Position numbers and translations under genes: made by a program
Part shown: one piece after another, positions 8,491 through 59,525 of the stretch
How positions within the stretch are numbered: the first letter of the stretch is position 1
How the letters are laid out: every line of letters begins with the position of its first letter
Source of the DNA: Candidatus Levybacteria bacterium RIFCSPLOWO2_02_FULL_37_18
GTDB lineage: Bacteria > Patescibacteriota > Microgenomatia > Levybacterales > UBA12049
DNA length: 62,563 nt
NCBI GenBank assembly: GCA_001784115.1
Contig: MFPD01000002.1
Coordinates: 1-62,563, forward strand
Direction: 5' to 3'
Notes under the pieces: generated by a model
The model's database searches: none
Told to the model about the DNA's origin: nothing
What the model saw: the letters and a program-made list of their open reading frames with translations, nothing else

Positions 8491-9386
8491 CAAACCATAA
8501 ACGCTCCCTTGCCTATCTTTCTTTAACCATTGCCTCTGTTATCTGGGGAGCAAACGGCCCGATTATGAAATTTGTTTTAGCCTCAATTCCACCTTTTACC
8601 CTGGCTTTTTTAAGATTTGGAGGAGCGTCACTGATACTCTTTCCATTTGTTTTTAAAAAGCTTTCTATCGCCAAAAAAGATAGAAAAAACGTGATATTAA
8701 GTGCAATTTTTGGCGTAAGTTTAAACATCGGATTTTTCTTTTTAGGACTTAACGCCACAACAGCGTTAAACGCGGGAATTATTGTTGCCTCCCTTCCTAT
8801 TTTTACTCTTATTTTTGCAGGCATATTTTTAAAAGAAAAAGTGGGGAAAAATTTTGTGTTAGGATCACTATTGGGATTATTGGGAATTTTAGTCATAATA
8901 GGAAAAGGTTTTTTTTCAGCTTCAATTTCTCCTTTGGGAGATATTTTAATTCTTCTGGCAACGCTATCGTATGTAATCTACGAAATAATAAGCAAACACT
9001 TAAAAAATTATTCCCCTCTTACCATTATCTTTTATATGTGTCTTATCGGCGCTTTATCATTTTTTCCCTTTGCTTTTTTGGAATACCAAACCAATCCGCT
9101 TTGGATTTACAGACTTTCTCCCGGAATAATTATGGGAATTGTATACGGCATTTTCTTTTCTTCGTTAGCAGCGTATGTATTGTGGCAATGGGCGCTGTGG
9201 CAATTACAAGCATCAAGAGTTGGATTTTTCTTTTATTTAGACCCCATCGTGTCAACAATCACGGCAGTTTTATTTTTATCCGAGCACATTACTCCTTCCT
9301 TTATTTTAGGTTCGTTATTAATTTTTTTAGGTCTTTTTGTTGCCGAAGGCCACTTCCGCCATTACCATGTGATTAATTGTATTTAA
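8487..9386 (+). CDS. EamA/DMT family transporter
   Basis: About 10 hydrophobic segments in two repeats, IWG motif. Confidence 0.85.
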   Translation: MTNHKRSLAYLSLTIASVIWGANGPIMKFVLASIPPFTLAFLRFGGASLILFPFVFKKLSIAKKDRKNVILSAIFGVSLNIGFFFLGLNATTALNAGIIVASLPIFTLIFAGIFLKEKVGKNFVLGSLLGLLGILVIIGKGFFSASISPLGDILILLATLSYVIYEIISKHLKNYSPLTIIFYMCLIGALSFFPFAFLEYQTNPLWIYRLSPGIIMGIVYGIFFSSLAAYVLWQWALWQLQASRVGFFFYLDPIVSTITAVLFLSEHITPSFILGSLLIFLGLFVAEGHFRHYHVINCI

Positions 9387-9415
9387 ATCATCCGCCCGCC
9401 AGAATAATAACCTTC

Positions 9416-11101
9416 CTAAGACGGAACTGATATGATTTTTTGCTCATTGTTTCCTTTCTTACTTTCTAAATGCACCTTTCTTCCCCAAACCATTGCAACA
9501 GCTTTCAATGCTTTACGAGTTGCTTCCTCATCTAATTCCCTTCCATCAAATGTATGTACTAAATATAGTTCTCTATTGCTATTCCAATCTCCTCCATTTT
9601 CGGCAACCTGAATAAGGGGCAATCCGTTATTTTCAACTGAATCTACCAAAGCTTTTTTTACCGTATTATAATCTCGATTTGTTGTTGAACCGGAAATTGC
9701 GGCAATTCCCAATTCTTCAACTATTTTTGGGGTAAGATAAGAATTCAAAAATCCCCAATCACTGCTAACATTTTCTCTGACATAGAGCGGATCATACTCT
9801 ATTTTCCCAATAAAACTTTTTGGATCTATAAACCGCCCTCTATAATCTTTTTCGCGTATTTCTCTTCTTATTACATCTTCTGACTCTGGGTCAAACTTTC
9901 CAAGTATGTCATCAAATAGAGCAATGCCCAGTTTGTTTGCCAATAATTCATATTCTTTTTCCCACTCTCCATTTGGTTTAATTTTTCCGCTTCTTTCTAA
10001 ATTTCTCATAATATTTCTTGCCACAAATGTTTTCCATCCCTCTAAAAGAATAGCTGTTTGCATTATTGGGTAAAAATACAGCGCCTCGGCTCTTACCATA
10101 GTAAGAACATCTCTTTGCCAGTCTTTTAAAACCGGTGAAAATGCAGCAATAAACCACAATATATCCTGTTCTGGTTTTGAAGGAAAAGGCGGAGGATTTT
10201 TTTCTTTGGGTTTTACGGGAGGACTTAGCAGTGCTCTTTTTTTAGCTTCGAGTTCTTGAAGAAAAACTGTCGCAAGTTGTTTTGCTTCTGGATCCTCCAG
10301 ATACGGTTTTACCTCTGCGATTTGGGAATCTATTTCTCTTAGTTTTTGGACTGATTCAGGAATTTTTGGCAGATCATCGTAGGGTGTTTTTTTCTCGGGT
10401 TTTAAACGTATAGAATCTCTGTGCTTTTGATCGCTTGCTTTTTTATAATCGCCGGGTGAAGATTTATTCGGATCAGATGGATCTATAAACCATTGAATTG
10501 AATACGCCCCGTCCAAAACCGCTTGCACTTCTTTAGCACCAAAATTTACTCCGTATTCTCTGATGCGGCTTGCATATTCTTGAAATATCAGACCCGTATT
10601 TCTGTCTGTTTTTGCAAATGCTTTATTATGTTTATAAAAATCAGCTTGCGCTAAAGCTCGAGCGTATCTCCAGGCGCTCACTGTTATTTTTTCACCTTCG
10701 GGAATATATACATAAGAAGGGTCTGTGTTGGTTACGTGTTCTAAGTGTGATTCCTTCAAACGCGCGTATCGAAGTTGTTGTATCCAATGAAAATATCTTC
10801 CTGGCGCACCGGAAGCGTTATACCGATGAATAAGCTCAACAGGCACTTTTTTACACAACGTATCAAAAGGATCAAGTCCTAATTCATAAGCTGCATCCCT
10901 AACATTTCCTAAAGAAGTCTCAAGATCGTCGGGCTTGGGTATATCTTCTTGCAACGGCACTTCCTGTAAAGACACAAAAGAAACTCTTTCTTTTCTCATT
11001 AAAACCACGTGGTTTGCTGCTCCATTTTTACCAACTCCATTAATACCGAATAAATCTTTTAAACCTCTTAATCTGTTACCTAATCTTTCTGCAATACCCA
11101 T
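9416..11101 (-). CDS. divergent SpoVR family protein
   Basis: ELGLDPF, GAPGRYFHW, NTDPSY, DFYKHN, PEQDILWFI, WQRDVLTMVRAEALYF, LEGW, VHLES; start is coupled (TAATG) to the upstream gene. Confidence 0.75.
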   Translation of the reverse strand: MGIAERLGNRLRGLKDLFGINGVGKNGAANHVVLMRKERVSFVSLQEVPLQEDIPKPDDLETSLGNVRDAAYELGLDPFDTLCKKVPVELIHRYNASGAPGRYFHWIQQLRYARLKESHLEHVTNTDPSYVYIPEGEKITVSAWRYARALAQADFYKHNKAFAKTDRNTGLIFQEYASRIREYGVNFGAKEVQAVLDGAYSIQWFIDPSDPNKSSPGDYKKASDQKHRDSIRLKPEKKTPYDDLPKIPESVQKLREIDSQIAEVKPYLEDPEAKQLATVFLQELEAKKRALLSPPVKPKEKNPPPFPSKPEQDILWFIAAFSPVLKDWQRDVLTMVRAEALYFYPIMQTAILLEGWKTFVARNIMRNLERSGKIKPNGEWEKEYELLANKLGIALFDDILGKFDPESEDVIRREIREKDYRGRFIDPKSFIGKIEYDPLYVRENVSSDWGFLNSYLTPKIVEELGIAAISGSTTNRDYNTVKKALVDSVENNGLPLIQVAENGGDWNSNRELYLVHTFDGRELDEEATRKALKAVAMVWGRKVHLESKKGNNEQKIISVPS

Positions 11102-46329: not shown

Positions 46330-47775
46330 CTACAACCATTTTTTCCCGTCACGTTCTATAAGGTCAAGTGCTTCCTTAGGTCCCCACGTACCCGGCTCAT
46401 ATATAAGAGGCTTTTGTGAACTTTTATGCCACCCAAGCAAAATCTGATTTATAAATTCCCAAGAGCTTTCCAGCTCATCCGAGCGATTGAAAAGCATTTG
46501 ATCCCCGTGTAGAATGTCTTGCAAAATCTTTTCGTACGCATCACTTCCTTTTGTCCCAAATTCCGAAGCATACGTAAATTTCATGTCAACTGTTTTTAAA
46601 GATAAAGTTGAACCCGGAACCTTAGCCACAACCCGCATGCCGATTCCCTCATCGGGTTGAATATGAATAGTTAGGACATTCCCTTCTTCCGGACACCCGT
46701 ATTCTTTAAATAAAATGTGGCACGTTTGTTTAAATACAATTGAAATTTTTACTTCATTTTTGTCTACATTTTTTCCTGCCCGAAGATAAAACGGTACTCC
46801 TTCAAACCTGGGGGTATCCACACAAAGTTTTAAAGCCACAAATGTCTCTGTAACAAAATTGGGGTCAACGTCTTTTTCTTCCAAATATCCCTTATATTGA
46901 GCCCTTACCACCAGTTTCCCAACTTCCTCCGGCTTGATGCATCGGATAGCTTCTATGGCATTAAACCGCTCGTCTCGAATTGCTTCTTTTTCAAAACTTC
47001 TGGGCTGCTCCATGGCAACTGCGGCAACGAGCTGCATTAAATGGTTTTGGGCAACATCCCGCAAAAGTCCTACTCCGTCAAAAAATTTTCCCCTTCCAGA
47101 AATTCCTTTTTTCTCACCCCAGATAATTTGTACGTGATCAATATGCTCTTTATTCCACACAGGCTCGAAAATACCATTGGCAAAACGAAATGCAATCATA
47201 TTCTGGACTGTTTCTTTTCCCAAATAGTGGTCTACTCGAAAAATCTGTTTTTCTTCAAAAATTTCGGCCAATTTTTTATCAAGATTTCGTGCGGTTTCCA
47301 AATCTTTTCCAAACGGCTTTTCAATTGCCAACCGCGTCCATTTTGCAGATCCTTGACTACAGCCTTCTGAAAGTTTTGTTGAACTTAAATAATTAAGGAT
47401 TGTTTCGTAATTATCAGGCGGAGTTGCTAAATAAAAAACTCTGGTAATACACGCGCCGACTTTTGCGTCAAAGGTATGTAACTTTTGGATTAACTGTTGG
47501 TACCCCTGTTGCTCATCGAATAAACCTCGTTGGTAATAAAGATTTTGAGAAAACTTCTTCCACTCACTCTGATAATACGTATTATTAGAGTGAATAGACT
47601 TCCTCATCAATTCTCGAAATGCTTCGTTGGTAAAGTCCCGTCTGGCAAAACCGACAATATAAAATTCTTGCCCGAGTTGATTTTGTCGATATAACGAAAA
47701 CAAAGCGGGAGTTAATTTATTTTTTGCAAGATCCCCAGTTGCTCCAAAGATGATAATTACGAAAGAACTATTCAT
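46330..47775 (-). CDS. zwf: glucose-6-phosphate 1-dehydrogenase
   Basis: GATGDLA, EKPFG, RVDHYLGKE, RDVAQNHLMQ. Confidence 0.97.
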   Translation of the reverse strand: MNSSFVIIIFGATGDLAKNKLTPALFSLYRQNQLGQEFYIVGFARRDFTNEAFRELMRKSIHSNNTYYQSEWKKFSQNLYYQRGLFDEQQGYQQLIQKLHTFDAKVGACITRVFYLATPPDNYETILNYLSSTKLSEGCSQGSAKWTRLAIEKPFGKDLETARNLDKKLAEIFEEKQIFRVDHYLGKETVQNMIAFRFANGIFEPVWNKEHIDHVQIIWGEKKGISGRGKFFDGVGLLRDVAQNHLMQLVAAVAMEQPRSFEKEAIRDERFNAIEAIRCIKPEEVGKLVVRAQYKGYLEEKDVDPNFVTETFVALKLCVDTPRFEGVPFYLRAGKNVDKNEVKISIVFKQTCHILFKEYGCPEEGNVLTIHIQPDEGIGMRVVAKVPGSTLSLKTVDMKFTYASEFGTKGSDAYEKILQDILHGDQMLFNRSDELESSWEFINQILLGWHKSSQKPLIYEPGTWGPKEALDLIERDGKKWL

Positions 47776-47784
47776 TATTTTCTA

Positions 47785-47915
47785 GAATTTCTAATCTCTA
47801 ATATCTAAATCCTAAACAAATTACAAATTTTCAAAATCTAAAATCCTAAACAGTTTTGTGTTTTGGTTATTTGTATTTTAATATTATTTAGAATTTATGA
47901 TTTGTGATTTAGGAT
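47785..47915. repeat. 7-mer-periodic hairpin element
   Basis: AATCTCT AATATCT AAATCCT AAACAAA ... TTATTTAG AATTTATG ATTTGTG ATTTAGG. Confidence 0.8.
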
Positions 47916-48637
47916 TTAATTAATACTGCTCGTACTGGTGAACCATCGGACGAAACTCTCAAAGGCAGGCATATCAACTTGTATTCTCCTTCTGGAACTT
48001 CTGATAGATCAAGTCCTTCCGCAATTACAATCCCTGCTTTTAAAAGAGCTGTGTGAACCGGATGTCCTGGATTTTTTTCTTTCTCAATTCCCAGAAAGTC
48101 TGTCCCTACTAAAACAGCTCCTTTTTTAAGGAGGTATTCTGCTCCTTTTAAAGAAAGTGATATATAGCTATCAGGAAATGTTGGTTGTTTAAGGAGTTTA
48201 TAATTTCCTGTTTTAAAAAGTATCCGATCTCCTTTTTTAATACTGAATTGAACGAGATCTTCTGGAAGAATTTCTAGATCATACGTCATTCTGGCAAGGT
48301 CGCCCAGGCGACCGCGTCCAGAATCTCTCTTTTTTTGATTCTGGAGTCCTCTGGATAAACCAGAGTCCCCAGAATGACGACTAAACATGTCTGCTAAATC
48401 CAAAACTCGGCACGGGCCAATTAGTTTTTCTAAATCTATCATATCAATATTTGATCCTTTTTCAACAAAATGTGAAGGAGCATCAATGTGAGTTCCTGTG
48501 TGGCTTGAAAAGGATAACTGGGAAAACCCAACGCCGTGACTTTTTACAGTAGTTTTTACTTCGATATGAGGTTTCGGATCACCCCACCACACAAGCATGT
48601 TGTCGTGAATTGGAAGGGTTATGTCATAAATCTTCAT
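47909..48637 (-). CDS. cyclase family (kynurenine formamidase-like) metallohydrolase with in-frame palindromic insert (48285-48378)
   Basis: HTGTHIDAPSHF, GTDFLGIE, HTALL, DGSPVRAV. Confidence 0.9.
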   Translation of the reverse strand: MKIYDITLPIHDNMLVWWGDPKPHIEVKTTVKSHGVGFSQLSFSSHTGTHIDAPSHFVEKGSNIDMIDLEKLIGPCRVLDLADMFSRHSGDSGLSRGLQNQKKRDSGRGRLGDLARMTYDLEILPEDLVQFSIKKGDRILFKTGNYKLLKQPTFPDSYISLSLKGAEYLLKKGAVLVGTDFLGIEKEKNPGHPVHTALLKAGIVIAEGLDLSEVPEGEYKLICLPLRVSSDGSPVRAVLIKS

Positions 48638-51739: not shown

Positions 51740-52621
51740 TCATGTTGAGCTCGATTCAGCATCCTTCTTTGGTTTTGCCTTTGTTTTCTTTTGGGTTGTC
51801 TTTTTCTTTTCTTCCTTTGCCTCAGCCGCGTTTGACGCTGTCTCCTCTTTAGCTTTTTGTTCTTTTGGTGCTCCATTTGATACCTTTGATACTTCTGGTA
51901 CTTTTGATACTTCTTTCGCTTGCTTTCTTCCCTCAATCCAAGCATCTACAATATGAACAACGATAAGCTTGAGACTTCCGACGGCATCATCATTTGCAGG
52001 TATGGGATAATCAATTACCAAAGGATCTGCATTGGTATCAACAATTCCAACCGTAGTAACTCCCATTTTTTGCGCCTCTCTTACCGCTAAGTCTTCCAAA
52101 TGAGTATCAATAATAAACAACGCGTCGGGGATTGCTTGTATAGTTGATACTCCGCCGTATAATCTTTCTAATTTTACTTTTTCTTTTTCCCAAAGTCCGA
52201 CTTCTCTTTTTGTATATTTGGCTTTTTCTTCATCATTCCTAATTTTTACTTCTAAATCTTTTAGTTTTTTGTAATTTTTTGCAACTTCTGAGAAATTAGT
52301 TAATGTCCCGCCGATCCATCTCTCGGTTGCGTAAAACAAACCGTCTGCACCTGTTTCATAAGCTCGCTTTATATTTTCGAGAACAAGAGGTTGAGCTTGC
52401 CTTTTGGTGCCGACAATAAGAAGGGTCCCTCCCCGCTGTGCAAGCAAACGAACGTACTGGGCAGCTTCGTCTAATCCTTTCTTGGTTTTGACAAGATCAA
52501 TAATGTGGATGTTATCCCTGGCTTCAAAAATAAAATCCCGGGCTTTGGGGTTTTGGCGGGTAACCTGGTGGCCAAAATGACAACCGGCTTCCAATAATTC
52601 TTCTAAAATTATTTCTCTCAT
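51740..52621 (-). CDS. rpsB: 30S ribosomal protein S2
   Basis: LLEAGCHFGH, RWIGGTLTN, PANDDA. Confidence 0.97.
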   Translation of the reverse strand: MREIILEELLEAGCHFGHQVTRQNPKARDFIFEARDNIHIIDLVKTKKGLDEAAQYVRLLAQRGGTLLIVGTKRQAQPLVLENIKRAYETGADGLFYATERWIGGTLTNFSEVAKNYKKLKDLEVKIRNDEEKAKYTKREVGLWEKEKVKLERLYGGVSTIQAIPDALFIIDTHLEDLAVREAQKMGVTTVGIVDTNADPLVIDYPIPANDDAVGSLKLIVVHIVDAWIEGRKQAKEVSKVPEVSKVSNGAPKEQKAKEETASNAAEAKEEKKKTTQKKTKAKPKKDAESSST

Positions 52622-52682: not shown

Positions 52683-52734
52683 TAAGATAGATACATCTTA
52701 TCAAAGTTTAAACAAGAATACAAGTGATTCGATT

Positions 52735-52771
52735 TACACCCTTGGGGTGGAAATGAGGCTCCACCCGCGGA
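52735..52771. repeat. CACC-n-GGTG repeat
   Basis: TACACCCTTGGGGTGGAAATGAGGCTCCACCCGCGGA. Confidence 0.85.
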
Positions 52772-52824
52772 AAACACCTCTTTCTTGCTTTTTAGAAGCA
52801 TTTGGCATACAATGGCTTTCTTGT

Positions 52825-53676
52825 ATGACAGCAGTACGCGAACTTCAGCCATCAATAATTGTTCCCGAAGAACCAATACCAGCGGTTTTCCAAAGACATC
52901 CGGAGCTTTTGGCAATCCCTCCGCATAAATTCCCAAACTCTGTACTTATTATTCCGGACGGCAATGGCAGGTTTGCCCAGACGCATGGCTTGCCCATTAT
53001 AGAGGGACACAAAGCAGGTGCAAAAGCTTTAAAAAAAGCAGTTGAATTTTTTGTTGAAATTCCTGAGATAAAACGGCTTGTTGTCTGGGGATTTTCTCAT
53101 GATAACTGGAAACGAGACGAAACAAGTCCCGGAGAAGTTGATGGAATTATGGCAGTAACTGAGGCAACTATTTTAGGAAGTTTGGAAATGTTTCATAAAC
53201 ATAAAATTAGATTTAGAAGGATCGGAAGGCCGGAAAGAATTCAAGAAGAATATAAGTCGCTTTGGCACACAATAATACAGGCAGAACAAGAAACTGCAGG
53301 CTATATAAATAAAGAGCTTGTTTTGGCACTGGATTTTAGCGGAAAAGACCAGGTAGAAAGAATGCTTGCAGAATTTGGCCGAATTTGTATGACTGGAATA
53401 AGTATTATGGATCCCAAAGAATCAGCAGCAATCATGGTTGATCTATTACGCGATGGAGGAGGCACGATAACTCCTGTTGATTTAGTAGCGCGAACCTCTG
53501 GAGAAAATAGAACATCTGACATTGGTTGGATTGGAGAAAACTCTGAATTTTTCCCTATAGAAAAATTGCTTCCCGATGTTACTGAAAAAGACTTTGCAGA
53601 TGTGTTAATTGATTATTCAAAAAGAGAAAGAAGATTCGGCGCCCGCCCCACACCGTCTACAAATAATACCGCTTAG
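52825..53676 (+). CDS. uppS: cis-prenyltransferase (undecaprenyl diphosphate synthase family)
   Basis: IIPDGNGRF, GHKAG, FSHDNWKR, ARTSGENRTSD; TTGCTT-17-TACAAT promoter. Confidence 0.85.
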   Translation: MTAVRELQPSIIVPEEPIPAVFQRHPELLAIPPHKFPNSVLIIPDGNGRFAQTHGLPIIEGHKAGAKALKKAVEFFVEIPEIKRLVVWGFSHDNWKRDETSPGEVDGIMAVTEATILGSLEMFHKHKIRFRRIGRPERIQEEYKSLWHTIIQAEQETAGYINKELVLALDFSGKDQVERMLAEFGRICMTGISIMDPKESAAIMVDLLRDGGGTITPVDLVARTSGENRTSDIGWIGENSEFFPIEKLLPDVTEKDFADVLIDYSKRERRFGARPTPSTNNTA

Positions 53677-53678
53677 TT

Positions 53679-53969
53679 TTATGCAGCTTCTGCAAACCTC
53701 TGAGGTAAAATTCCCGCTCTTTCAAAAACTGGGACAAGAGTAGGAACAGAATATGGCCGAGGTGCTATCCATACTACCCGTGGTTCTTGGTAAACTATAG
53801 GAAGCGGTTTACGATCATGTGTTCCATTTAAAGAAACAAGAGGAATATCGTTTGTCCTAACTTGTAACGCAAGACGAGTGTTGGAAGTATGACGATCTAC
53901 AAACCCTCTTCTATGTACCAAGAAATTGGTAAACGCCTTCTCGCTGTATCTACGCCGACATAGTTCCAT
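53679..53969 (-). CDS. hypothetical small protein
   Basis: ORF that fills the gap exactly; no motif. Confidence 0.35.
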   Translation of the reverse strand: MELCRRRYSEKAFTNFLVHRRGFVDRHTSNTRLALQVRTNDIPLVSLNGTHDRKPLPIVYQEPRVVWIAPRPYSVPTLVPVFERAGILPQRFAEAA

Positions 53970-54032
53970 AGTATCATTGATAGTATATCTCTGTTTTTTG
54001 AAAATGCAATAGGTATGCTATAATCCCCAGAT

Positions 54033-55119
54033 ATGACAACTGTAGAAACACACCCAGGAAGAAGAGAAGTCGAACCTTTTCCTTTTTCTCTTCCCATTGT
54101 TACCAGACTTGGAGACACTCCTATATCAAACGCAGATATAGAAGCATATGCTAAAAAAAAAGGCGTAACAACTGCAAGCGGAACACTTCTTACCGCAGAA
54201 AAAATATTCGCAAATACGGGAGTTTCCACACGTTTTGAATCTGGTCCTTTACAAACCCAGGAAAGCATGGCACGAAGTATAGCTGCAGAACTTGCAGAAG
54301 CTTATGGCGGCCCCCCGAATGCTATTGTTGTTTCAAGTAACCCACCCCCAGAGAAAAAATTTGGCGTTCGCAGGATGGAACGAGTTGCATCAAAGAGGAA
54401 TACTGGATGAACCTCCCACGGAAAGTAATAGGGTTCCTGGTCAGTACTTTGAAGTAAATGCCGCTTGTTCCGGTCTAGTGGTTGCGCTTGCTCACTTGTA
54501 CACACATGCTTCTTATTATCATGGAAAACTGGTCTATCTCATTGCTACCGAAGGAGGATATCGAAAAACGCTTCCGCCTCTTGAGGAGGATGATGGAGAA
54601 ACCGGCTCACTACAGAGAACTCTTTTTACAGATGGAGCTGCTGGGATACGAGGAAGATATGGAATTGATTTTACGATAGTAAAAAAACCGCTAATAAAGC
54701 TATTCTGTGATGCGGAAAAAACGCTTTGTATTCCTATGGCTCCTGCTTCCCCACCATCTTTTACTTTAGAAATTCCTCCGCCAAACGGAATTTTTCAACG
54801 AATGAAAGGAAATCCTGTATTCAAATGGACGAACAGAGAACTTCCTGCAGCGATCCGAGAAACTATTAAAGGTACTAACGCAAAAAAAGTAATTCTCCAC
54901 CAGGCAAACGGAAGAATTATCGAAATGCAACAAAGACTATTCCCTCATCTTGATTTTCCTAATCACATAAAAGATACCGGAAACACTTCCTCTGCGTCTA
55001 TTTTGTTTGCACTTTCCGAAGAGATAAAAAGAGGAACTATTTCAAAAGGAGAAGAAGTAGGACTTATTGGATTCGGCGGCGGGCTTATGATTGCGGGAGC
55101 AGTAGTAAAGTTTGGATAA
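54033..55119 (+). pseudogene. FabH/KAS III-like ketosynthase, one frameshift near 54340-54349
   Basis: Two overlapping ORFs; VNAACSG, ILHQAN, GNTSSAS (Cys-His-Asn triad), GFGGG. Confidence 0.8.
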
Positions 55120-55143
55120 ACTTTATTTTCTTATCGCTTCTTT

Positions 55144-55557
55144 TTAACCGAAACTTTTCAACGCCTGTACAAAGGAAAATTTTGTTTTTTCTTTAAATCG
55201 CCCGTCTGCGGTAATGAGTTTGGCTTTCCTTCTTTTGGCAATGACTGCATACAGCATGTCATACACTGAAGTTTTATACTTTTTAGCAAGCTTTCCTTAC
55301 TCAATAAGATCAACTTTTTCTTCTGTAGAAGTACCAAACTGAAGACTATAAAGAAATTCAAGGCTTTTTGTAATTGTCCTACTTGTGGTATCTGATTTTG
55401 TTGCCAAAGCGTTTGCAATTTCAATAAAGGCAAATTTTGGAACAACTATCTGCTCTTCTCCACGTTTAAACTTTTCGAACAAAAATAATGCAGGCTCACT
55501 TTCTTCTTCATCCGGTTTGACCCATTTAAAAATGACCGATGCATCAACTACAATCAT
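55144..55557 (-). pseudogene. PIN/VapC toxin with in-frame TAA at 55297-55299
   Basis: IVVDASV..E..NAL; the frame continues past the stop as GKLAKKYKTSVYDMLYAVIA..LITAD. Confidence 0.85.
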
Positions 55558-55799
55558 TATTCGTAGCGCATTTCAATAAGTGCTTTAGTGAGATTGCGTC
55601 CTTTGTTCTCTTTTATCATTGCCTTTTGAATTTCCAAAAGATCTTTATCAAGCTTTACCTCTTTATTTTTATACTTTTTTTTAGGTAAAACTCTTTCACG
55701 AATAATAGCGGCAACACTTTTTCTTTTTTTTGCTGCTTCCATTTTTAATTCCATATATTCTTCTTCGGGAAACCGAATGTTGGTAGTAATCCAATTCAT
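55557..55799 (-). CDS. ribbon-helix-helix antitoxin
   Basis: TTNIRFPEEEY..KSVAAIIRE; TAATG coupling to the toxin; TACAAT 6 nt upstream. Confidence 0.8.
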   Translation of the reverse strand: MNWITTNIRFPEEEYMELKMEAAKKRKSVAAIIRERVLPKKKYKNKEVKLDKDLLEIQKAMIKENKGRNLTKALIEMRYE

Positions 55800-55918
55800 A
55801 GTATGATTGTACAATGATACTAAAAACCTGTCAAAATGGAAAGAGGTTCTGTTTACTATAAGTTATTGACATTGGAATACCCCGGTGATATTCTTCCCGT
55901 TATCACTGTCCAAACGAT

Positions 55919-56866
55919 ATGGCAGCACCAGAAACACCAACAGTTAAACCGGACAATTTTCCAGCTACGTATCCTCCTCTTATTCCTACAGAACCCCAAC
56001 TTCTTGCCGATGATTCCTATGAACAATTTGTAAGCGCACCAAAAATTGTTGCAGTTGATACCGAACTTGCAAGAAGAATTCCAACAGTAACAAAGAAAAC
56101 ACTCCTTGATAATGGAACAGGAACCGGTGCAATGATTATCCATGCACATGAGCAAGGTAAGCTAGTACATCCTTTTAAAGTAGTTGGGGTTGATCCGGAC
56201 ACGAAGGCTCTTGATAAAGCAAAAGCAAAATTAGCTTTTTTGGGTGATGCTGTAGAGTTAATAGAAGGTAAATCAGAAGACCTTCCGGTTCCTTCGGAAT
56301 CTGTTGATGTAATTATACATGCAAATTCTTCACATCTTGCAAAACCCATTCAGAAAGCTTTTAGTGAAAGTTTTCGTGTTTTGAAACCTGGTGGAGAGTA
56401 TCATATGATTATGGCATATGAAAAAAAAAGGTCATACGCAGAAGGTATGGAAGGAAGAGCCTGGGGATTATGGATTTCTCTTGTCCGAGAATACTTAATG
56501 GAAAGAAAAGGTTACAAAAAAGAACAATTCCAAAGCCCAGTTGATTTAAGACAACATACAGAAGAAGAGATGGTTCAAATGTTAAAAGATGAAGGGTTTG
56601 TTGAATTAGAAACAGAATTTGTTGACGTAGATATGGGTCCTGAAGAATTTGTTGGAATTGGAAATTACCATGATTTTGCCGAAGGCGCTTTACCTGGTAT
56701 TCCAGTAGAGGATGCTCGTGAAGCATTAGTTAAAACTGTTCCTGCTTTATTTAGGAGACTAAATAGAGACCATGAAAAAGATCCAGCAAAACCAGCAGTA
56801 GTAAAATCAACAAGAAGGTGGTTCTTTGTAAAAGCAAAAACCCGCTGCAGTGGCAACATAAAGTAA
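55919..56866 (+). CDS. class I SAM-dependent methyltransferase
   Basis: LLDNGTGTG, GVDPD, VLKPGG; TTGACA-17-TATTCT promoter (55866-55894). Confidence 0.85.
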   Translation: MAAPETPTVKPDNFPATYPPLIPTEPQLLADDSYEQFVSAPKIVAVDTELARRIPTVTKKTLLDNGTGTGAMIIHAHEQGKLVHPFKVVGVDPDTKALDKAKAKLAFLGDAVELIEGKSEDLPVPSESVDVIIHANSSHLAKPIQKAFSESFRVLKPGGEYHMIMAYEKKRSYAEGMEGRAWGLWISLVREYLMERKGYKKEQFQSPVDLRQHTEEEMVQMLKDEGFVELETEFVDVDMGPEEFVGIGNYHDFAEGALPGIPVEDAREALVKTVPALFRRLNRDHEKDPAKPAVVKSTRRWFFVKAKTRCSGNIK

Positions 56867-56874
56867 ATACAAAT

Positions 56875-57806
56875 ATGACAGAAACACGATTAGCCCGACA
56901 AATGGGAGCAGTAGACGTTCAAGGAACAGGATAACCTGATGCTAGGATTGGATTTACTCCCCAAGGCCTTATAGAAGCTCGGGAAAGAAAAATAATGCAA
57001 GGACAAGTTGCTATTGTAATTGGCGCAAGTCCTGACGGAATCGGCGGAGCAAGTGCCAGGCAACTATCCCTTCTTGGAGCAACTGTTGTGACCAGTTCTC
57101 GAAATAAAGGAGAAGAGTCACAACAAGCAGCTAATGCATTTGCCGCCAAACTAAAAGAAGAAACAGGATCTGAAGTTAACTGGATCCCGACAGATGTAAC
57201 AGATGAAAATTCGGTAAAAGCTCTGATTGATGAAACTATACAAAGATTTGGTCGGATTGATACTGTAAGTTATAAGTCCAGGTGTAAAGGAAGATACTGT
57301 ATTTTGGAGAATGTCAGAAGCACAAATGCCACAAATGCATAGAGTTTTTGAAACAAATTTCTTTGGTCCAATGAGAGTTGTAAAAGCTGTGACAAGCAAA
57401 TTGGTAAGACAAAAAGACGCCGCCTCCTGTGAAGTTTGTTGCTGTCTCAAGTGAATCTTCAATTGGAGCTCCGGGACAGGCAAATTACAGTGGATCAAAA
57501 GCAGCTTTAAATGCTGCTTTCCAATCCTGCATTCATGATATTGAATGGACTAGGCAAATGTTCCCTCATGTAAATGCAAGATTCAACATTGTTTCTCCGG
57601 GACTTACTAATACACCAATGGTTAAATCAGAAATAGAAGATGATGCAAAAAGGTAAATGATACTTGATTGGTCTCATGCGGATAGAGTTATGCCTCCATA
57701 CGAAGCAGGACAAGTGGTTGCATACCTTGCCTCCCCTGCGTCTGGTGATATTAATGGTCAAGTTGTTTCAGTAATAGGAAAAGGCGAAAACCCACCTGCT
57801 GATTAA
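56875..57806 (+). pseudogene. FabG-like SDR oxidoreductase with two in-frame stops and two frameshifts
   Basis: VIGASPDGIG, FGRIDT, NFFG, NYSGSK (YxxxK), VSPG, GQV; TAA at 56932 and 57654; extra base near 57268 and near 57420. Confidence 0.8.
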
Positions 57807-57826
57807 TCTCCTGCCTAATAGTATGG

Positions 57827-58702
57827 ATGATGAAGATTTTTGTTTTTAAATGAGTCGTCAAATTAGGATATCTCCAGGAAGTGTTAGATACTTTTGGTCC
57901 AGATAATCTTAATGCGAATGTTTGGCAAGATGTGCCAAATCCAGATTCTCCATTTTTTACCAACACTGCCTTTGTGCAGCCGCTGGTGTATACTCTTTCC
58001 GACCTGGCCGCTGAACTAACAACAGAGACTTTGCAAAGAAGAAATATCACTCCTATTTTTGTGGCCGGGCATAGCCTTGGCGAATACGAAGCGGCAACAA
58101 AAGCAGGATGTGTAACCCGCCTTCAAGGCTTAGAAATTGTTGCGTTTCGAGGAAGAATCATGCAGGAAGCTTCAGTCGAAAATCCGAGTAAATTAGTGAG
58201 CATTTTGGGTATGTCTGAAGATGAAGTAAGACGGACAATCTGCACAAGAATTGAAAGTGAAATTGCTTTAGTAAAAGCTCCTACATGTATTGTTATAGGA
58301 ACTTCAAAGGATACACCTACTTAAGACATCGAAGTTATTGCCAAAGAAAATGGAAACAGACGAGTAACTGAATTAGATACTGCGGGAGCTTTTCACACGT
58401 CTTTTATGAACAAAGCAGCTTGGAGGTTGGAAGAATTTTTAAGACGCTACCCTTTTGCAGACGCAGGCCTACCTTTTGTTGGCAATTTCAGCGGAACTTC
58501 TACTACCAAAGGCAACCAGATAAAAAAGCAACTAATAGGTGTTATGACACAAACAGCCCTGTGATCTGATGTATTACAAACAATAAAACAAGAAGATGCA
58601 AAGTTATTTGTAGAACTTGGCCCTGGCAATTCTTTTGCGTCTTTAAACAAAATAAATGGCATAGACCCAAGTACAACAATAGCAACTGCAGATTTATTCT
58701 AA
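57827..58702 (+). pseudogene. FabD-like malonyl/acyltransferase with in-frame stops
   Basis: VQP, GHSLGE, RGRIMQ, GAFH, VELGPG; stops at 57851, 58322 and 58561. Confidence 0.8.
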
Positions 58703-58799
58703 ATCCATTTCGTTTTCCCCAGTTACCCAGTTACTCTGCCTGCAATTTCCCTGGCTTTTTGCAGAAACCCGAAACTCCACCACAAAATTCAGTACATCA

Positions 58800-58824
58800 A
58801 TACGCTATAGCAGACTATTGTAAT
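58800..58824. repeat. direct repeat, left copy
   Basis: ATACGCTATAGCAGACTATTGTAAT (22/25 identical to 59457-59481). Confidence 0.8.
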
Positions 58825-58834
58825 TTTTAAAATT

Positions 58835-58894
58835 ATGAATTACTATTCTTACGGTATTACTACTACTAATAATAATAATAATAATAATTTCTAG
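58835..58894 (+). other. poly-Asn uORF / AAT microsatellite
   Basis: ATG..(ACT)3(AAT)7 TTC TAG, in frame with the downstream ATG at 58898. Confidence 0.45.
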
Positions 58895-58897
58895 AAA

Positions 58898-59467
58898 ATG
58901 AGTGCGGAAAAGACTAAGATCAGAACCCAAGATATCCTTAAAGTACTTGCAGCTTCGGGAATAATTTCTCTTACTCTCATTGCCCCCAGCATACCATTTG
59001 CACTTATGCAATTCTACAAATCTTGGAAGAAAGCGAACTCTGCGGATATTGGAAGAATTATAAAGCGTCTCCAAAAACAAGAAATGATTTCTATCCAGGA
59101 AAATAAGGATAGTATAACTATAGAAATTACAGAAAAAGGCAAACACAGAGTTTTGGAATATGATTTTGAGAATATTAAGCGTAAGGCTAAAAAACGTGAC
59201 GGAAAATGGAGACTTATTATTTTTGATATTCCAGAAGGGAAAAAACGAAATAGAGATGCTTTCAGGAAAAAATTGCTGCAACTGGGATGTATTTGGTTAC
59301 AAGATAGTGTCTTTGTGAGTGCTTTTCCATGCAAAGATGAGGTTGATTTCTTAAGCAATTATCTTGAAATATCAGATTATGTAACCGTAGCAGTTGTTGA
59401 AAAAATTGAACGAGGCGAAGAATTACTTTTTAAAAACTTACGTAACTTTGACATTGATACGCTATAG
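58898..59467 (+). CDS. PaaX-like protein (winged helix plus Cas2/VapD-like C-terminal domain)
   Basis: IKRLQKQEMI..ITEKG; WRLIIFDIPE..RDAFRKKL..G..LQDSVF. Confidence 0.8.
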   Translation: MSAEKTKIRTQDILKVLAASGIISLTLIAPSIPFALMQFYKSWKKANSADIGRIIKRLQKQEMISIQENKDSITIEITEKGKHRVLEYDFENIKRKAKKRDGKWRLIIFDIPEGKKRNRDAFRKKLLQLGCIWLQDSVFVSAFPCKDEVDFLSNYLEISDYVTVAVVEKIERGEELLFKNLRNFDIDTL

Positions 59468-59481
59468 CGTAATATTGTAAT
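59457..59481. repeat. direct repeat, right copy (contains the stop codon; palindromic core TACGCTATAGCGTA)
   Basis: ATACGCTATAGCGTAATATTGTAAT. Confidence 0.8.
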
Positions 59482-59525
59482 AAATGCGACGAGAAATATA
59501 ACTTTATCCTAACTTTAATTTACAA

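What the first reader, a model, noticed from the sequence alone, without database searches (positions are those of the whole stretch)
52825..58702. Decaying fabH-MTase-fabG-fabD cluster beside a cis-prenyltransferase
Seen: a KAS III-like gene (one frameshift, triad intact), an intact SAM methyltransferase, an SDR (2 stops, 2 frameshifts) and an acyltransferase (3 stops, including TGA at an expected Trp), all on the plus strand after uppS. No ACP is in view, and flanking housekeeping genes are lesion-free. Established: CPR genomes generally lack fatty-acid synthesis. Inference: a rare relic of a FAS II-like or small polyketide/prenyl-lipid pathway caught in the act of loss; a locally poor assembly is the alternative.
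Basis: partly seen in the sequence, partly recalled or inferred. Interest (0 to 1): 0.7.

Follow-up and report, generated by a model that had tools for sequence, protein, structure and literature searches.

The report
Dying fatty-acid-type operon in Levybacteria
A tiny-genome groundwater bacterium (Candidatus Levybacteria, CPR) carries the wreck of a fatty-acid-synthase-like gene cluster: two genes are dead in every strain sampled, one is broken only in this strain, and partner genes kept by relatives are missing, so this is real gene loss in progress and not an assembly error.

Summary
On the + strand after uppS lie four genes:
- a KAS III (FabH-like) gene
- an intact SAM methyltransferase
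- a FabG-like SDR with 2 nonsense codons and 2 one-base insertions
- a FabD-like acyltransferase with 3 nonsense codons and, not noted before, loss of its first ~50 codons including the PGQG loop

The SDR and acyltransferase lesions recur in independent assemblies: Logan contigs of nine runs (two of them probably one data set) and eight contigs from JGI, GenBank, ENA and Logan. They are therefore real and population-wide. One SDR frameshift is still polymorphic in one sample.

The KAS III frameshift occurs only in the window's own sample. Everywhere else the gene is an intact 361-aa ORF with its Cys-His-Asn triad.

Relatives on short metagenome contigs keep intact orthologues next to a FabF-like ketosynthase and hot-dog dehydratases. 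These partners are absent here, and a toxin-antitoxin pair with a dead toxin sits where one relative has the ketosynthase. No ACP lies in the window.

The acyltransferase belongs to a distinct clade far from canonical FabD, with the same GC content as the genome, so it is an old resident rather than a fresh import. The uppS adjacency looks coincidental.

The parts
52825..53676 (+). uppS-like cis-prenyltransferase. It is intact, a housekeeping neighbour, and probably not part of the cluster.
   Evidence: Pfam Prenyltransf 2e-39. TIGR00055 scores 115.8 against a cut-off of 109.55. Other assemblies call it as 283 aa, inside the rseP-frr-tsf-rpsB-uppS neighbourhood.
54033..55119 (+). KAS III (FabH-like) gene. 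In this strain it is frameshifted by an extra A at 54335/54336. In other strains it is an intact 361-aa ORF.
   Evidence: The three-frame view is. Pfam ACP_syn_III_C scores 6e-19. The Cys/His/Asn triad aligns to FabH structures. A one-base deletion at 54335 restores the frame in runs X3-X7 and X9 and in contigs L173-L180. The intact form P0137/P0138 is present in GenBank Levybacteria MAGs.
55144..55557 (-). PIN-domain toxin pseudogene with an in-frame TAA at 55297-55299.
   Evidence: Read through the TAA it matches Pfam PIN at 2.8e-14. It is 61% identical to the intact 137-aa PIN of L007. The stop is present in all laid contigs.
55557..55814 (-). Intact antitoxin partner of the PIN gene (no Pfam match).
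   Evidence: It is 81% identical to the L007 antitoxin, which lies beside the L007 KAS III remnant. A promoter-like site TTGACA-17-TACAAT lies at 55834-55806.
55852..55918 (+). Conserved promoter block of the methyltransferase-SDR-acyltransferase operon (TTGACA-17-TATTCT, with TG before the second hexamer).
   Evidence: The site is at 55866-55894. The block is conserved with L009 upstream of its methyltransferase orthologue. Homology ends about 70 nt upstream of the ATG.
55919..56866 (+). Intact class I SAM methyltransferase (315 aa) of unknown substrate.
   Evidence: Pfam Methyltransf_25/11 and UbiE-like. Among 5.8 billion cluster representatives it has only one relative outside its own species cluster at E<1e-10, P0266 at 71%. 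Five polymorphic bases in four codons, all nonsynonymous, fall in 0.95 kb, against 8 SNPs in 12.1 kb of flanks.
56875..57806 (+). FabG-like SDR pseudogene. Lesions: TAA 56932-34, +1 base at 57268, +1 base in A5 run 57411-15 (polymorphic), TAA 57654-56.
   Evidence: The pieces match adh_short/KR. The start and first stop are defined by L009. Intact relatives P0271 and P0272 are 47-51% identical, and their best family is FabG TIGR01830 at about 126 bits, below the cut-off of 297.75. The A4 allele in X9 removes frameshift 2.
57827..58702 (+). FabD-like acyltransferase pseudogene. It has a 5' deletion of about 50 codons (LFPGQG lost), plus TGA 57851-53, TAA 58322-24 and TGA 58562-64.
   Evidence: Pfam Acyl_transf_1 and TIGR00128 fabD. 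Alignment A1 with 27 intact relatives is. No N-terminal match exists in any frame. It differs at 8 of 42 family-invariant columns, against 0-1 for 26 of the 27 other members and 5 for the outlier P0181. In the tree it sits in a 4-member subclade with P0146-P0148 (100/99).
58898..59467 (+). PaaX_M/Cas2-like wHTH gene bracketed by 31-nt direct repeats. It is a neighbour; a role as regulator of the cluster is possible but untested.
   Evidence: Pfam PaaX_M 3.6e-21. The repeats lie at 58794-58824 and 59451-59481 and are 84% identical.

Best explanation
This is a genuine, population-wide decaying remnant of a type II fatty-acid-synthase-like (or small type II PKS-like) operon in a groundwater Candidatus Levybacteria (CPR/Microgenomates).

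**Inferred ancestral pathway.**
- A FabD-like acyltransferase loaded malonyl units.
- A KAS III primed the chain.
- A FabF-like KS elongated it.
- A FabG-like SDR and a hot-dog dehydratase processed the beta-carbon.
- A SAM methyltransferase modified the primer or product.

**What is shown.**
- The KS and dehydratase that sit beside the orthologues in relatives are absent here. At the point where homology to one relative (L009) breaks, a toxin-antitoxin pair with a dead toxin lies.
- The acyltransferase has lost its N-terminus, including the PGQG loop, has three nonsense codons, and carries substitutions at invariant positions.
- The SDR has two nonsense codons and two one-base insertions.
- These lesions are fixed across samples, except one SDR frameshift that still segregates.
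- KAS III is intact in most strains and is newly frameshifted in the window's strain.
- The methyltransferase is intact but carries an excess of amino-acid polymorphism.

**Conclusion.** The locus cannot run a FAS/PKS cycle. It is being eroded gene by gene under relaxed selection. The inferred order of loss is KS and dehydratase first, then the acyltransferase, then the SDR, then KAS III, with the methyltransferase last.
For: **Lesions are mapped and real.** They are mapped. They are reproduced in Logan assemblies of runs X1-X9 and in 8 contigs from JGI, GenBank, ENA and Logan that are 99.91-99.96% identical over 52700-59500.

**Polymorphism.**
- The deletion at 54335 that restores KAS III is present in all runs except X1 and X2.
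- The A4/A5 bubble at 57411 in X9 has depths 2.7 and 2.3.

**Nonsense codons look like simple point changes.** They sit where relatives have Gln or Trp: CAA>TAA and TGG>TGA.

**Acyltransferase decay.**
- The N-terminus is absent in all frames.
- 8 of 42 invariant columns are altered, against 0-1 in 26 of the 27 relatives.

**The standard code is in use**.

**Relatives keep partner genes.**
- L009 has a FabF-like KS divergent from a 71% methyltransferase orthologue, followed by an SDR gene whose first 55 codons (to the contig end) are open.
- L010 has a 64% acyltransferase followed by a 171-aa ORF with a hot-dog-like motif but no family hit.
- L007 has the same TA pair, a dead KAS III, a KS, an SDR-FabZ fusion, a FabG-like SDR, a methyltransferase and an intact 59% acyltransferase.

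**No remnants here.** No KS or dehydratase remnant and no ACP were found in the window.

**Old resident.**
- The acyltransferase clade of 35 sequences is separated from canonical FabD with 100/100 support.
- GC is 0.393 in the cluster and 0.381 in the window.

**Background.** Most CPR bacteria lack FAS (PMC7242380; PMC4736985).
Against: - ACP, AcpS, FabF, FabZ or FabI elsewhere in the genome, or a second functional acyltransferase or SDR paralogue, cannot be excluded.
- KAS III and the methyltransferase are intact in most strains, so part of the locus may still be functional.
- Logan contigs drop rare variants, so intact minor alleles of the SDR or acyltransferase could exist unseen.
- L007's KS, SDR and methyltransferase are not close orthologues of the window-type genes (27% or less, or no hit). 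The reconstruction of the ancestral cluster therefore rests on three short contigs (L007, L009, L010) of unknown taxonomy.
- The excess of methyltransferase polymorphism rests on only four codons.
Confidence: 0.85

Rival explanations
1. Residual live module. KAS III and the methyltransferase, expressed from retained promoters, still work together or singly. For example, they could condense and methylate scavenged acyl-CoA and malonyl-CoA without ACP. Only the SDR and acyltransferase would then be dispensable wreckage. This is compatible with the main explanation for the dead genes.
For: - KAS III is an intact 361-aa ORF with its Cys-His-Asn triad on 19 contigs, and in all runs except X1/X2.
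- The methyltransferase is intact everywhere.
- The methyltransferase promoter block is conserved with L009.
- Only one substitution, a synonymous one, was seen in KAS III.
Against: - The window's own strain tolerates a KAS III frameshift.
- The methyltransferase shows about 8-fold higher SNP density than the flanks, and all changes are nonsynonymous.
- L007 shows that KAS III is the gene lost first in another lineage.
- No RNA run was available.
Confidence: 0.25
2. Assembly or sequencing artefact: the frames are really open, and the lesions come from a locally poor assembly.
For: - Two of the three frameshifts lie in or next to short homopolymers: AA at 54335 and A5 at 57411.
- The KAS III frameshift is confined to one data set, X1=X2.
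Against: - Five in-frame stop codons and a ~150-nt deletion cannot be homopolymer errors.
- Every SDR and acyltransferase lesion is identical in independent assemblies of nine runs (X1 and X2 probably one data set) and in 8 contigs from four sources.
- Contig word depth is even, about 9-14, across the region.
Confidence: 0.02
3. Recoding: the genes are expressed through an alternative genetic code (TGA as Trp or Gly), stop-codon readthrough and programmed frameshifts.
For: One TGA sits at a Trp that is invariant in the 27 aligned relatives. Some CPR lineages reassign TGA (own knowledge).
Against: - TAA, TAG and TGA all terminate long ORFs in this window, 30, 11 and 6 times.
- The lesions are a mix of TAA and TGA plus +1 insertions, with no shared slippery motif.
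- The acyltransferase lacks its N-terminal catalytic loop.
- Invariant residues are substituted.
Confidence: 0.02
4. Failed import: the cluster is a recently acquired accessory island, carried with the TA module, that was never functional in Levybacteria and decayed on arrival.
For: - The locus is linked to a TA pair that also flanks the related locus L007.
- Repeat-bracketed genes lie next door.
- L007 is a mosaic in which only the acyltransferase, KAS III and the TA pair are close to the window.
Against: - GC content equals that of the host.
- The acyltransferase falls in a clade containing a Candidatus Microgenomates protein, far from canonical FabD.
- Another Levybacteria species has a lone KAS III at 27% identity.
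- The KAS III, methyltransferase and SDR families have no close relatives outside a handful of metagenome contigs.
Confidence: 0.1

Closest known systems
Bacterial type II fatty acid synthase genes fabH, fabD, fabG (with fabF and fabZ in relatives)
   Same: - The best family matches for the four enzyme types are FabH (NF006829, TIGR00747), FabD (TIGR00128), FabG (TIGR01830) and FabF (TIGR03150).
- The catalytic motifs are recognisable: Cys-His-Asn in KAS III, GHSLGE plus R..MQ plus AFHT in the acyltransferase, and S...YxxxK in the SDR.
   Different: - Every score is far below the curated equivalog cut-offs, even for intact relatives. Examples: FabD 175 against 261, FabG 126 against 298, FabH 70-115 against 292.
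- A methyltransferase is embedded in the operon.
- The SDR has a ~40-aa N-terminal extension.
- No ACP lies in the window or in the related loci.
- Here two of the genes are dead and the KS and DH are missing.
Reductive genome evolution with pseudogene trails, as in Mycobacterium leprae and insect endosymbionts (own knowledge); another decaying operon in this same genome
   Same: Mutations accumulate stepwise across all genes of a pathway once one step is lost. The lesions are a mix of nonsense changes, homopolymer indels and deletions. Some lesions are fixed and others are still polymorphic.
   Different: This occurs in a CPR bacterium whose genome is already minimal and gene-dense. In such genomes pseudogenes are thought to be purged quickly. 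Here the decay can be followed at population level.
Partial FAS-II sets in CPR (Nealsonbacteria, Probst et al. 2020, PMC7242380) and fabG-only Peribacteria (PMC4736985)
   Same: These are CPR genomes with FAS-II homologues but without ACP machinery.
   Different: Nealsonbacteria are reported to lack malonyl-CoA:ACP transacylase. Here a FabD-like gene is the hallmark, and the set is demonstrably decaying rather than arguably functional.

Membership tests
KAS III / FabH (beta-ketoacyl-ACP synthase III) | Thiolase-fold KAS III C-terminal domain (PF08541) | tested here: met
   PF08541 scores 6.4e-19, 68 bits against a cut-off of 26.6.
KAS III / FabH (beta-ketoacyl-ACP synthase III) | Cys-His-Asn catalytic triad | tested here: met
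   AACSG, HQAN and GNTS(S/A)AS align with the same motifs of FabH structures 2ebd, 5bqs and 6a9n.
KAS III / FabH (beta-ketoacyl-ACP synthase III) | Score above the NCBIfam FabH cut-offs (TIGR00747 292; NF006829 249) | tested here: not met
   Intact allele P0137 scores 70 and 90 bits. Relative P0002 scores 115 and 137 bits. It is a divergent subfamily, not an equivalog.
KAS III / FabH (beta-ketoacyl-ACP synthase III) | Open reading frame | tested here: not met
   The gene is frameshifted in the window at 54335. It is open in 19 other contigs.
FabD (malonyl-CoA:ACP transacylase) | GHSLGE nucleophile elbow, Arg of R..MQ, His of AFHT/S | tested here: met
   VAGHSLGEYEA, FRGRIMQEA and GAFHTSFM are present in the translation.
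FabD (malonyl-CoA:ACP transacylase) | N-terminal PGQG(S/L) oxyanion loop | tested here: not met
   The loop is deleted. No match to residues 1-50 of relatives exists in any frame.
FabD (malonyl-CoA:ACP transacylase) | Open reading frame and TIGR00128 cut-off (260.9) | tested here: not met
   There are three in-frame stops. Intact relatives score only 153-175 bits.
FabG (3-oxoacyl-ACP reductase, classical SDR) | Gly-rich NAD(P) motif and Ser...Tyr-x-x-x-Lys | tested here: met
   GASPDGIGGA, VAVSSESS and YSGSKAAL are present in the read-through translation.
FabG (3-oxoacyl-ACP reductase, classical SDR) | Open reading frame; TIGR01830 cut-off (297.75) | tested here: not met
   There are two stops and two frameshifts. 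Intact relatives P0271 and P0272 score 126-127 bits.
Complete type II FAS / type II PKS system | ACP and its phosphopantetheinyl transferase | tested here: inconclusive
   tblastn with E. coli and B. subtilis ACP found nothing in the window or in L005-L010 (best E 0.55).
Complete type II FAS / type II PKS system | Elongating KS (FabF/B), dehydratase and enoyl reductase in the locus | tested here: not met
   tblastn with the KS and dehydratase genes of L007, L009 and L010 found no remnant in 53.5-59 kb. These genes are present in relatives.

The most novel reading that the evidence does not exclude
Microgenomates-type CPR bacteria may once have had their own, highly divergent lipid or polyketide pathway, possibly independent of ACP. 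It would have been built from lineage-specific FabD-like, KAS III-like and N-terminally extended SDR families plus a methyltransferase. Different lineages now keep different pieces. The FabD-like gene survives as a lone intact gene in several contigs and genomes, while KAS III and the methyltransferase survive here. These survivors may have been co-opted to process scavenged host acyl chains. The Levybacteria population would then record the last steps of that transition.
Probability: 0.15. Interest if true: 0.65.

Novelty: new member of a known kind. Interest (0 to 1): 0.45.

Why it matters
CPR bacteria are thought to depend on other cells for their membrane lipids. How and when they lost fatty-acid synthesis is not documented gene by gene.

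This locus gives a dated-by-damage series inside one population: partner genes deleted, acyltransferase long dead, SDR dead with one lesion still segregating, KAS III just starting to break, methyltransferase still whole. Sister contigs have decayed in the complementary pattern.

The work also turns up a FabD-like clade, well separated from canonical FabD and so far labelled only as Levybacteria or Microgenomates. It persists as a lone intact gene where longer contigs are available, and its role without a FAS is an open, testable question.

Tried and rejected
- **Genome-contig scan with the acyltransferase alignment.** The patterns were too generic.
- **Metagenome-contig scan with UppS, meant to give synteny in sister species.** The best match was only 36% identical, so it gave no synteny information.
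- **RNA runs.** None were listed, so expression is untested.
- **Alternative genetic code or recoding.** Rejected (plus the nature of the lesions).
- **A functional link to uppS.** Rejected as unsupported. uppS lies in the usual rpsB-tsf-frr-rseP neighbourhood, and none of the related loci (L007, L009, L010) has a prenyltransferase.
- **L007 as a simple intact orthologue of the whole cluster.** Rejected. Only its acyltransferase, KAS III remnant and TA pair are close to the window. Its KS is 27% identical to the L009 KS, and its methyltransferase and SDR do not match the window's.
- **Literature searches for FAS genes in Microgenomates or Levybacteria.** They found nothing specific.


Full report
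**What is there.** Between uppS and glyA the + strand carries four genes:
- a KAS III-like gene (54033-55119)
- a class I SAM methyltransferase (55919-56866)
- a FabG-like SDR (56875-57806)
- a FabD-like acyltransferase (about 57827-58702)

Between KAS III and the methyltransferase lies a minus-strand PIN toxin/antitoxin pair (55144-55814). Its toxin has an in-frame TAA.

The organism is a Candidatus Levybacteria (CPR/Microgenomates) from groundwater and sediment metagenomes. The rpsB, methyltransferase and KAS III proteins fall in 90% clusters that hold GenBank entries named Candidatus Levybacteria bacterium. The sequence is held by groundwater and soil metagenome runs from 2015-16.

**Lesions.**
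- KAS III has one extra A at 54335/54336. Its Cys-His-Asn triad is intact and aligns with the FabH motifs.
- The SDR's true start is ATG 56875. The orthologue in L009 begins MSEAKMAQQMGAVDAQTPGQPEVKIGFTPEALVEARERKIMQGQVAIVIGASPEG, and intact relatives P0271 and P0272 share this N-terminal extension.
- The SDR carries four lesions: TAA 56932-34 (Gln in L009), an inserted base at 57268, an inserted A in the run 57411-15, and TAA 57654-56.
- The acyltransferase has TGA 57851-53, TAA 58322-24 (Gln in the closest relatives) and TGA 58562-64 (a Trp invariant in the 27 aligned relatives).
- The acyltransferase also lacks about 50 N-terminal codons, including the LFPGQG loop. No match exists in any frame.
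- The acyltransferase is changed at 8 of 42 columns that are invariant in the 27 intact relatives. Of those relatives, 26 deviate at 0-1 and one outlier at 5.

**Real, not artefact, not recoding.**
- Logan's independent assemblies of nine runs (X1 and X2 are probably one data set), spanning several studies, reproduce all SDR and acyltransferase lesions.
- So do eight contigs from JGI, two GenBank MAGs, ENA and Logan. They are 99.91-99.96% identical over 52700-59500.
- All three stop codons terminate long ORFs in the window: TAA 30, TAG 11, TGA 6.
- The stops look like single-base changes from Gln or Trp codons. The TGA at Trp is therefore an ordinary nonsense mutation.

**Loss in progress.**
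- The KAS III frameshift occurs only in runs X1 and X2, which appear to be one data set and probably the window's source.
- Six other runs and all eight contigs lack the extra A and encode an intact 361-aa protein, P0137, found on 19 contigs.
- In run X9 the SDR A-run is an assembly bubble. The A4 allele, which removes frameshift 2, has depth 2.7. The A5 allele has depth 2.3.
- The methyltransferase is intact everywhere but carries five polymorphic bases in four codons, all nonsynonymous, within 0.95 kb.
- The flanks carry 8 SNPs in 12.1 kb, of which 6 are nonsynonymous.
- This is weak evidence, but it is consistent with relaxed constraint on the methyltransferase.

**Relatives and the ancestral cluster.**

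| Gene | Closest relatives found |
|---|---|
| KAS III | P0002 40%, P0003 33%, and a lone KAS III at 27% in another Levybacteria |
| Methyltransferase | a single relative, P0266 at 71% |
| SDR | P0271 47% and P0272 51% |
| Acyltransferase | about 36 intact relatives at 35-67% |

In a tree the acyltransferase relatives form a clade separated from canonical FabD with 100/100 support. The window's copy nests with P0146-P0148 (100/99). One clade member is annotated Candidatus Microgenomates.

Where longer contigs were available, members of this clade are lone intact genes with no FAS neighbours.

Three short Logan contigs give context:
- **L009** has a FabF-like KS divergent from the methyltransferase orthologue, followed by an SDR gene whose first 55 codons are open up to the contig end.
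- **L010** has the acyltransferase followed by a 171-aa ORF. This ORF has a hot-dog-like motif by eye but no Pfam or NCBIfam hit.
- **L007** has the same TA pair (61% and 81%), a dead KAS III (frameshift plus a large deletion), a FabF-like KS, an SDR-FabZ fusion, a FabG-like SDR, a methyltransferase and an intact 59% acyltransferase.

Neither a KS or dehydratase remnant nor an ACP is detectable in the window.

Homology between the window and L009 starts at a conserved promoter block (TTGACA-17-TATTCT, 55866-55894) about 70 nt upstream of the methyltransferase. It is lost upstream of that point, where L009 has the KS and the window has the TA pair.

L007 is not a simple orthologue. Its KS is only 27% identical to the L009 KS, and its methyltransferase and SDR do not match the window's.

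**Interpretation.** The best family for each enzyme is FabH, FabG, FabD or FabF, but always far below the curated cut-offs. The cluster is therefore FAS-II-like in kind, but its genes are not equivalogs of the housekeeping genes.

GC content equals the genome's. The nearest relatives are a few unbinned metagenome contigs plus a Microgenomates entry. I read the cluster as an old resident rather than a recent import.

uppS lies in the classical rseP-frr-tsf-rpsB neighbourhood. No related locus has a prenyltransferase, so I see no evidence for a prenyl-lipid link.

The literature agrees that most CPR lack fatty-acid synthesis and that partial FAS-II sets without ACP machinery occur (PMC7242380; PMC4736985). 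Earlier notes of this scan report another decaying operon and a second, serine-less FabD-like gene in the same genome. I did not check either.

**Limits.**
ACP, FabZ, FabI and FabF elsewhere in the genome are therefore untested.
- The two large collection scans were uninformative.
- No RNA data could be found.
- Logan contigs hide rare alleles.

**Verdict.**
- The KAS III break is strain-specific.
- The acyltransferase is also 5'-truncated.
- A TA pair and missing KS and dehydratase genes are part of the picture.
- The uppS adjacency is coincidental.

This is a clean, population-resolved example of pathway erosion in a CPR genome. It is a new member of a known kind and of moderate interest.

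Noticed in passing
window 55144-55814 (minus strand); L007 227-882: The PIN toxin carries a fixed in-frame TAA (55297-99) while its antitoxin stays intact. The same TA pair (61% and 81% aa identity) lies next to a dead KAS III in the unrelated contig L007. The TA module and KAS III therefore travel together or share old synteny.
   Followed up: partly
window 58794-58824 and 59451-59481, around gene 58898-59467: 31-nt direct repeats (84% identical) bracket a PaaX_M/Cas2-like wHTH gene immediately downstream of the dead acyltransferase. PaaX-type regulators sense acyl-CoA ligands, so it could have been the cluster's regulator or a small mobile cassette.
   Followed up: partly
L008 10001-10912, L091 10001-10915, L092 10001-10978; proteins P0146-P0181: A clade of about 35 FabD-like acyltransferases is split 100/100 from canonical FabD. 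In the longer contigs examined its members are lone, intact genes with no FAS neighbours. What a malonyl-transferase-like enzyme does there is unexplained.
   Followed up: partly
window 52825-53676: The uppS-like cis-prenyltransferase is unusually divergent. Its best tblastn match in JGI metagenome contigs is 36%, and TIGR00055 scores 115.8 against a cut-off of 109.55. If the upstream GTG at 52747 is used, it gains a 26-aa N-terminal extension.
   Followed up: partly
window 55919-56866: The methyltransferase has three haplotypes in the population. They differ only by amino-acid changes: D110N, H162C (two bases), and M221V with D224N. SNP density is about 8 times that of the flanking genes.
   Followed up: partly
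L007 1393-2454 (minus) and 8928-9749 (plus): Two proteins of 353 and 273 aa have no Pfam or NCBIfam match and sit inside the FAS-like cluster of L007. They may be unknown pathway components.
   Followed up: no
window 47594-47934 and 51877-51912: Several runs show contig joints, skips and depth spikes (up to about 160) here. This suggests a short repeated element shared with other community members, or strain-variable repeat inserts.
   Followed up: no
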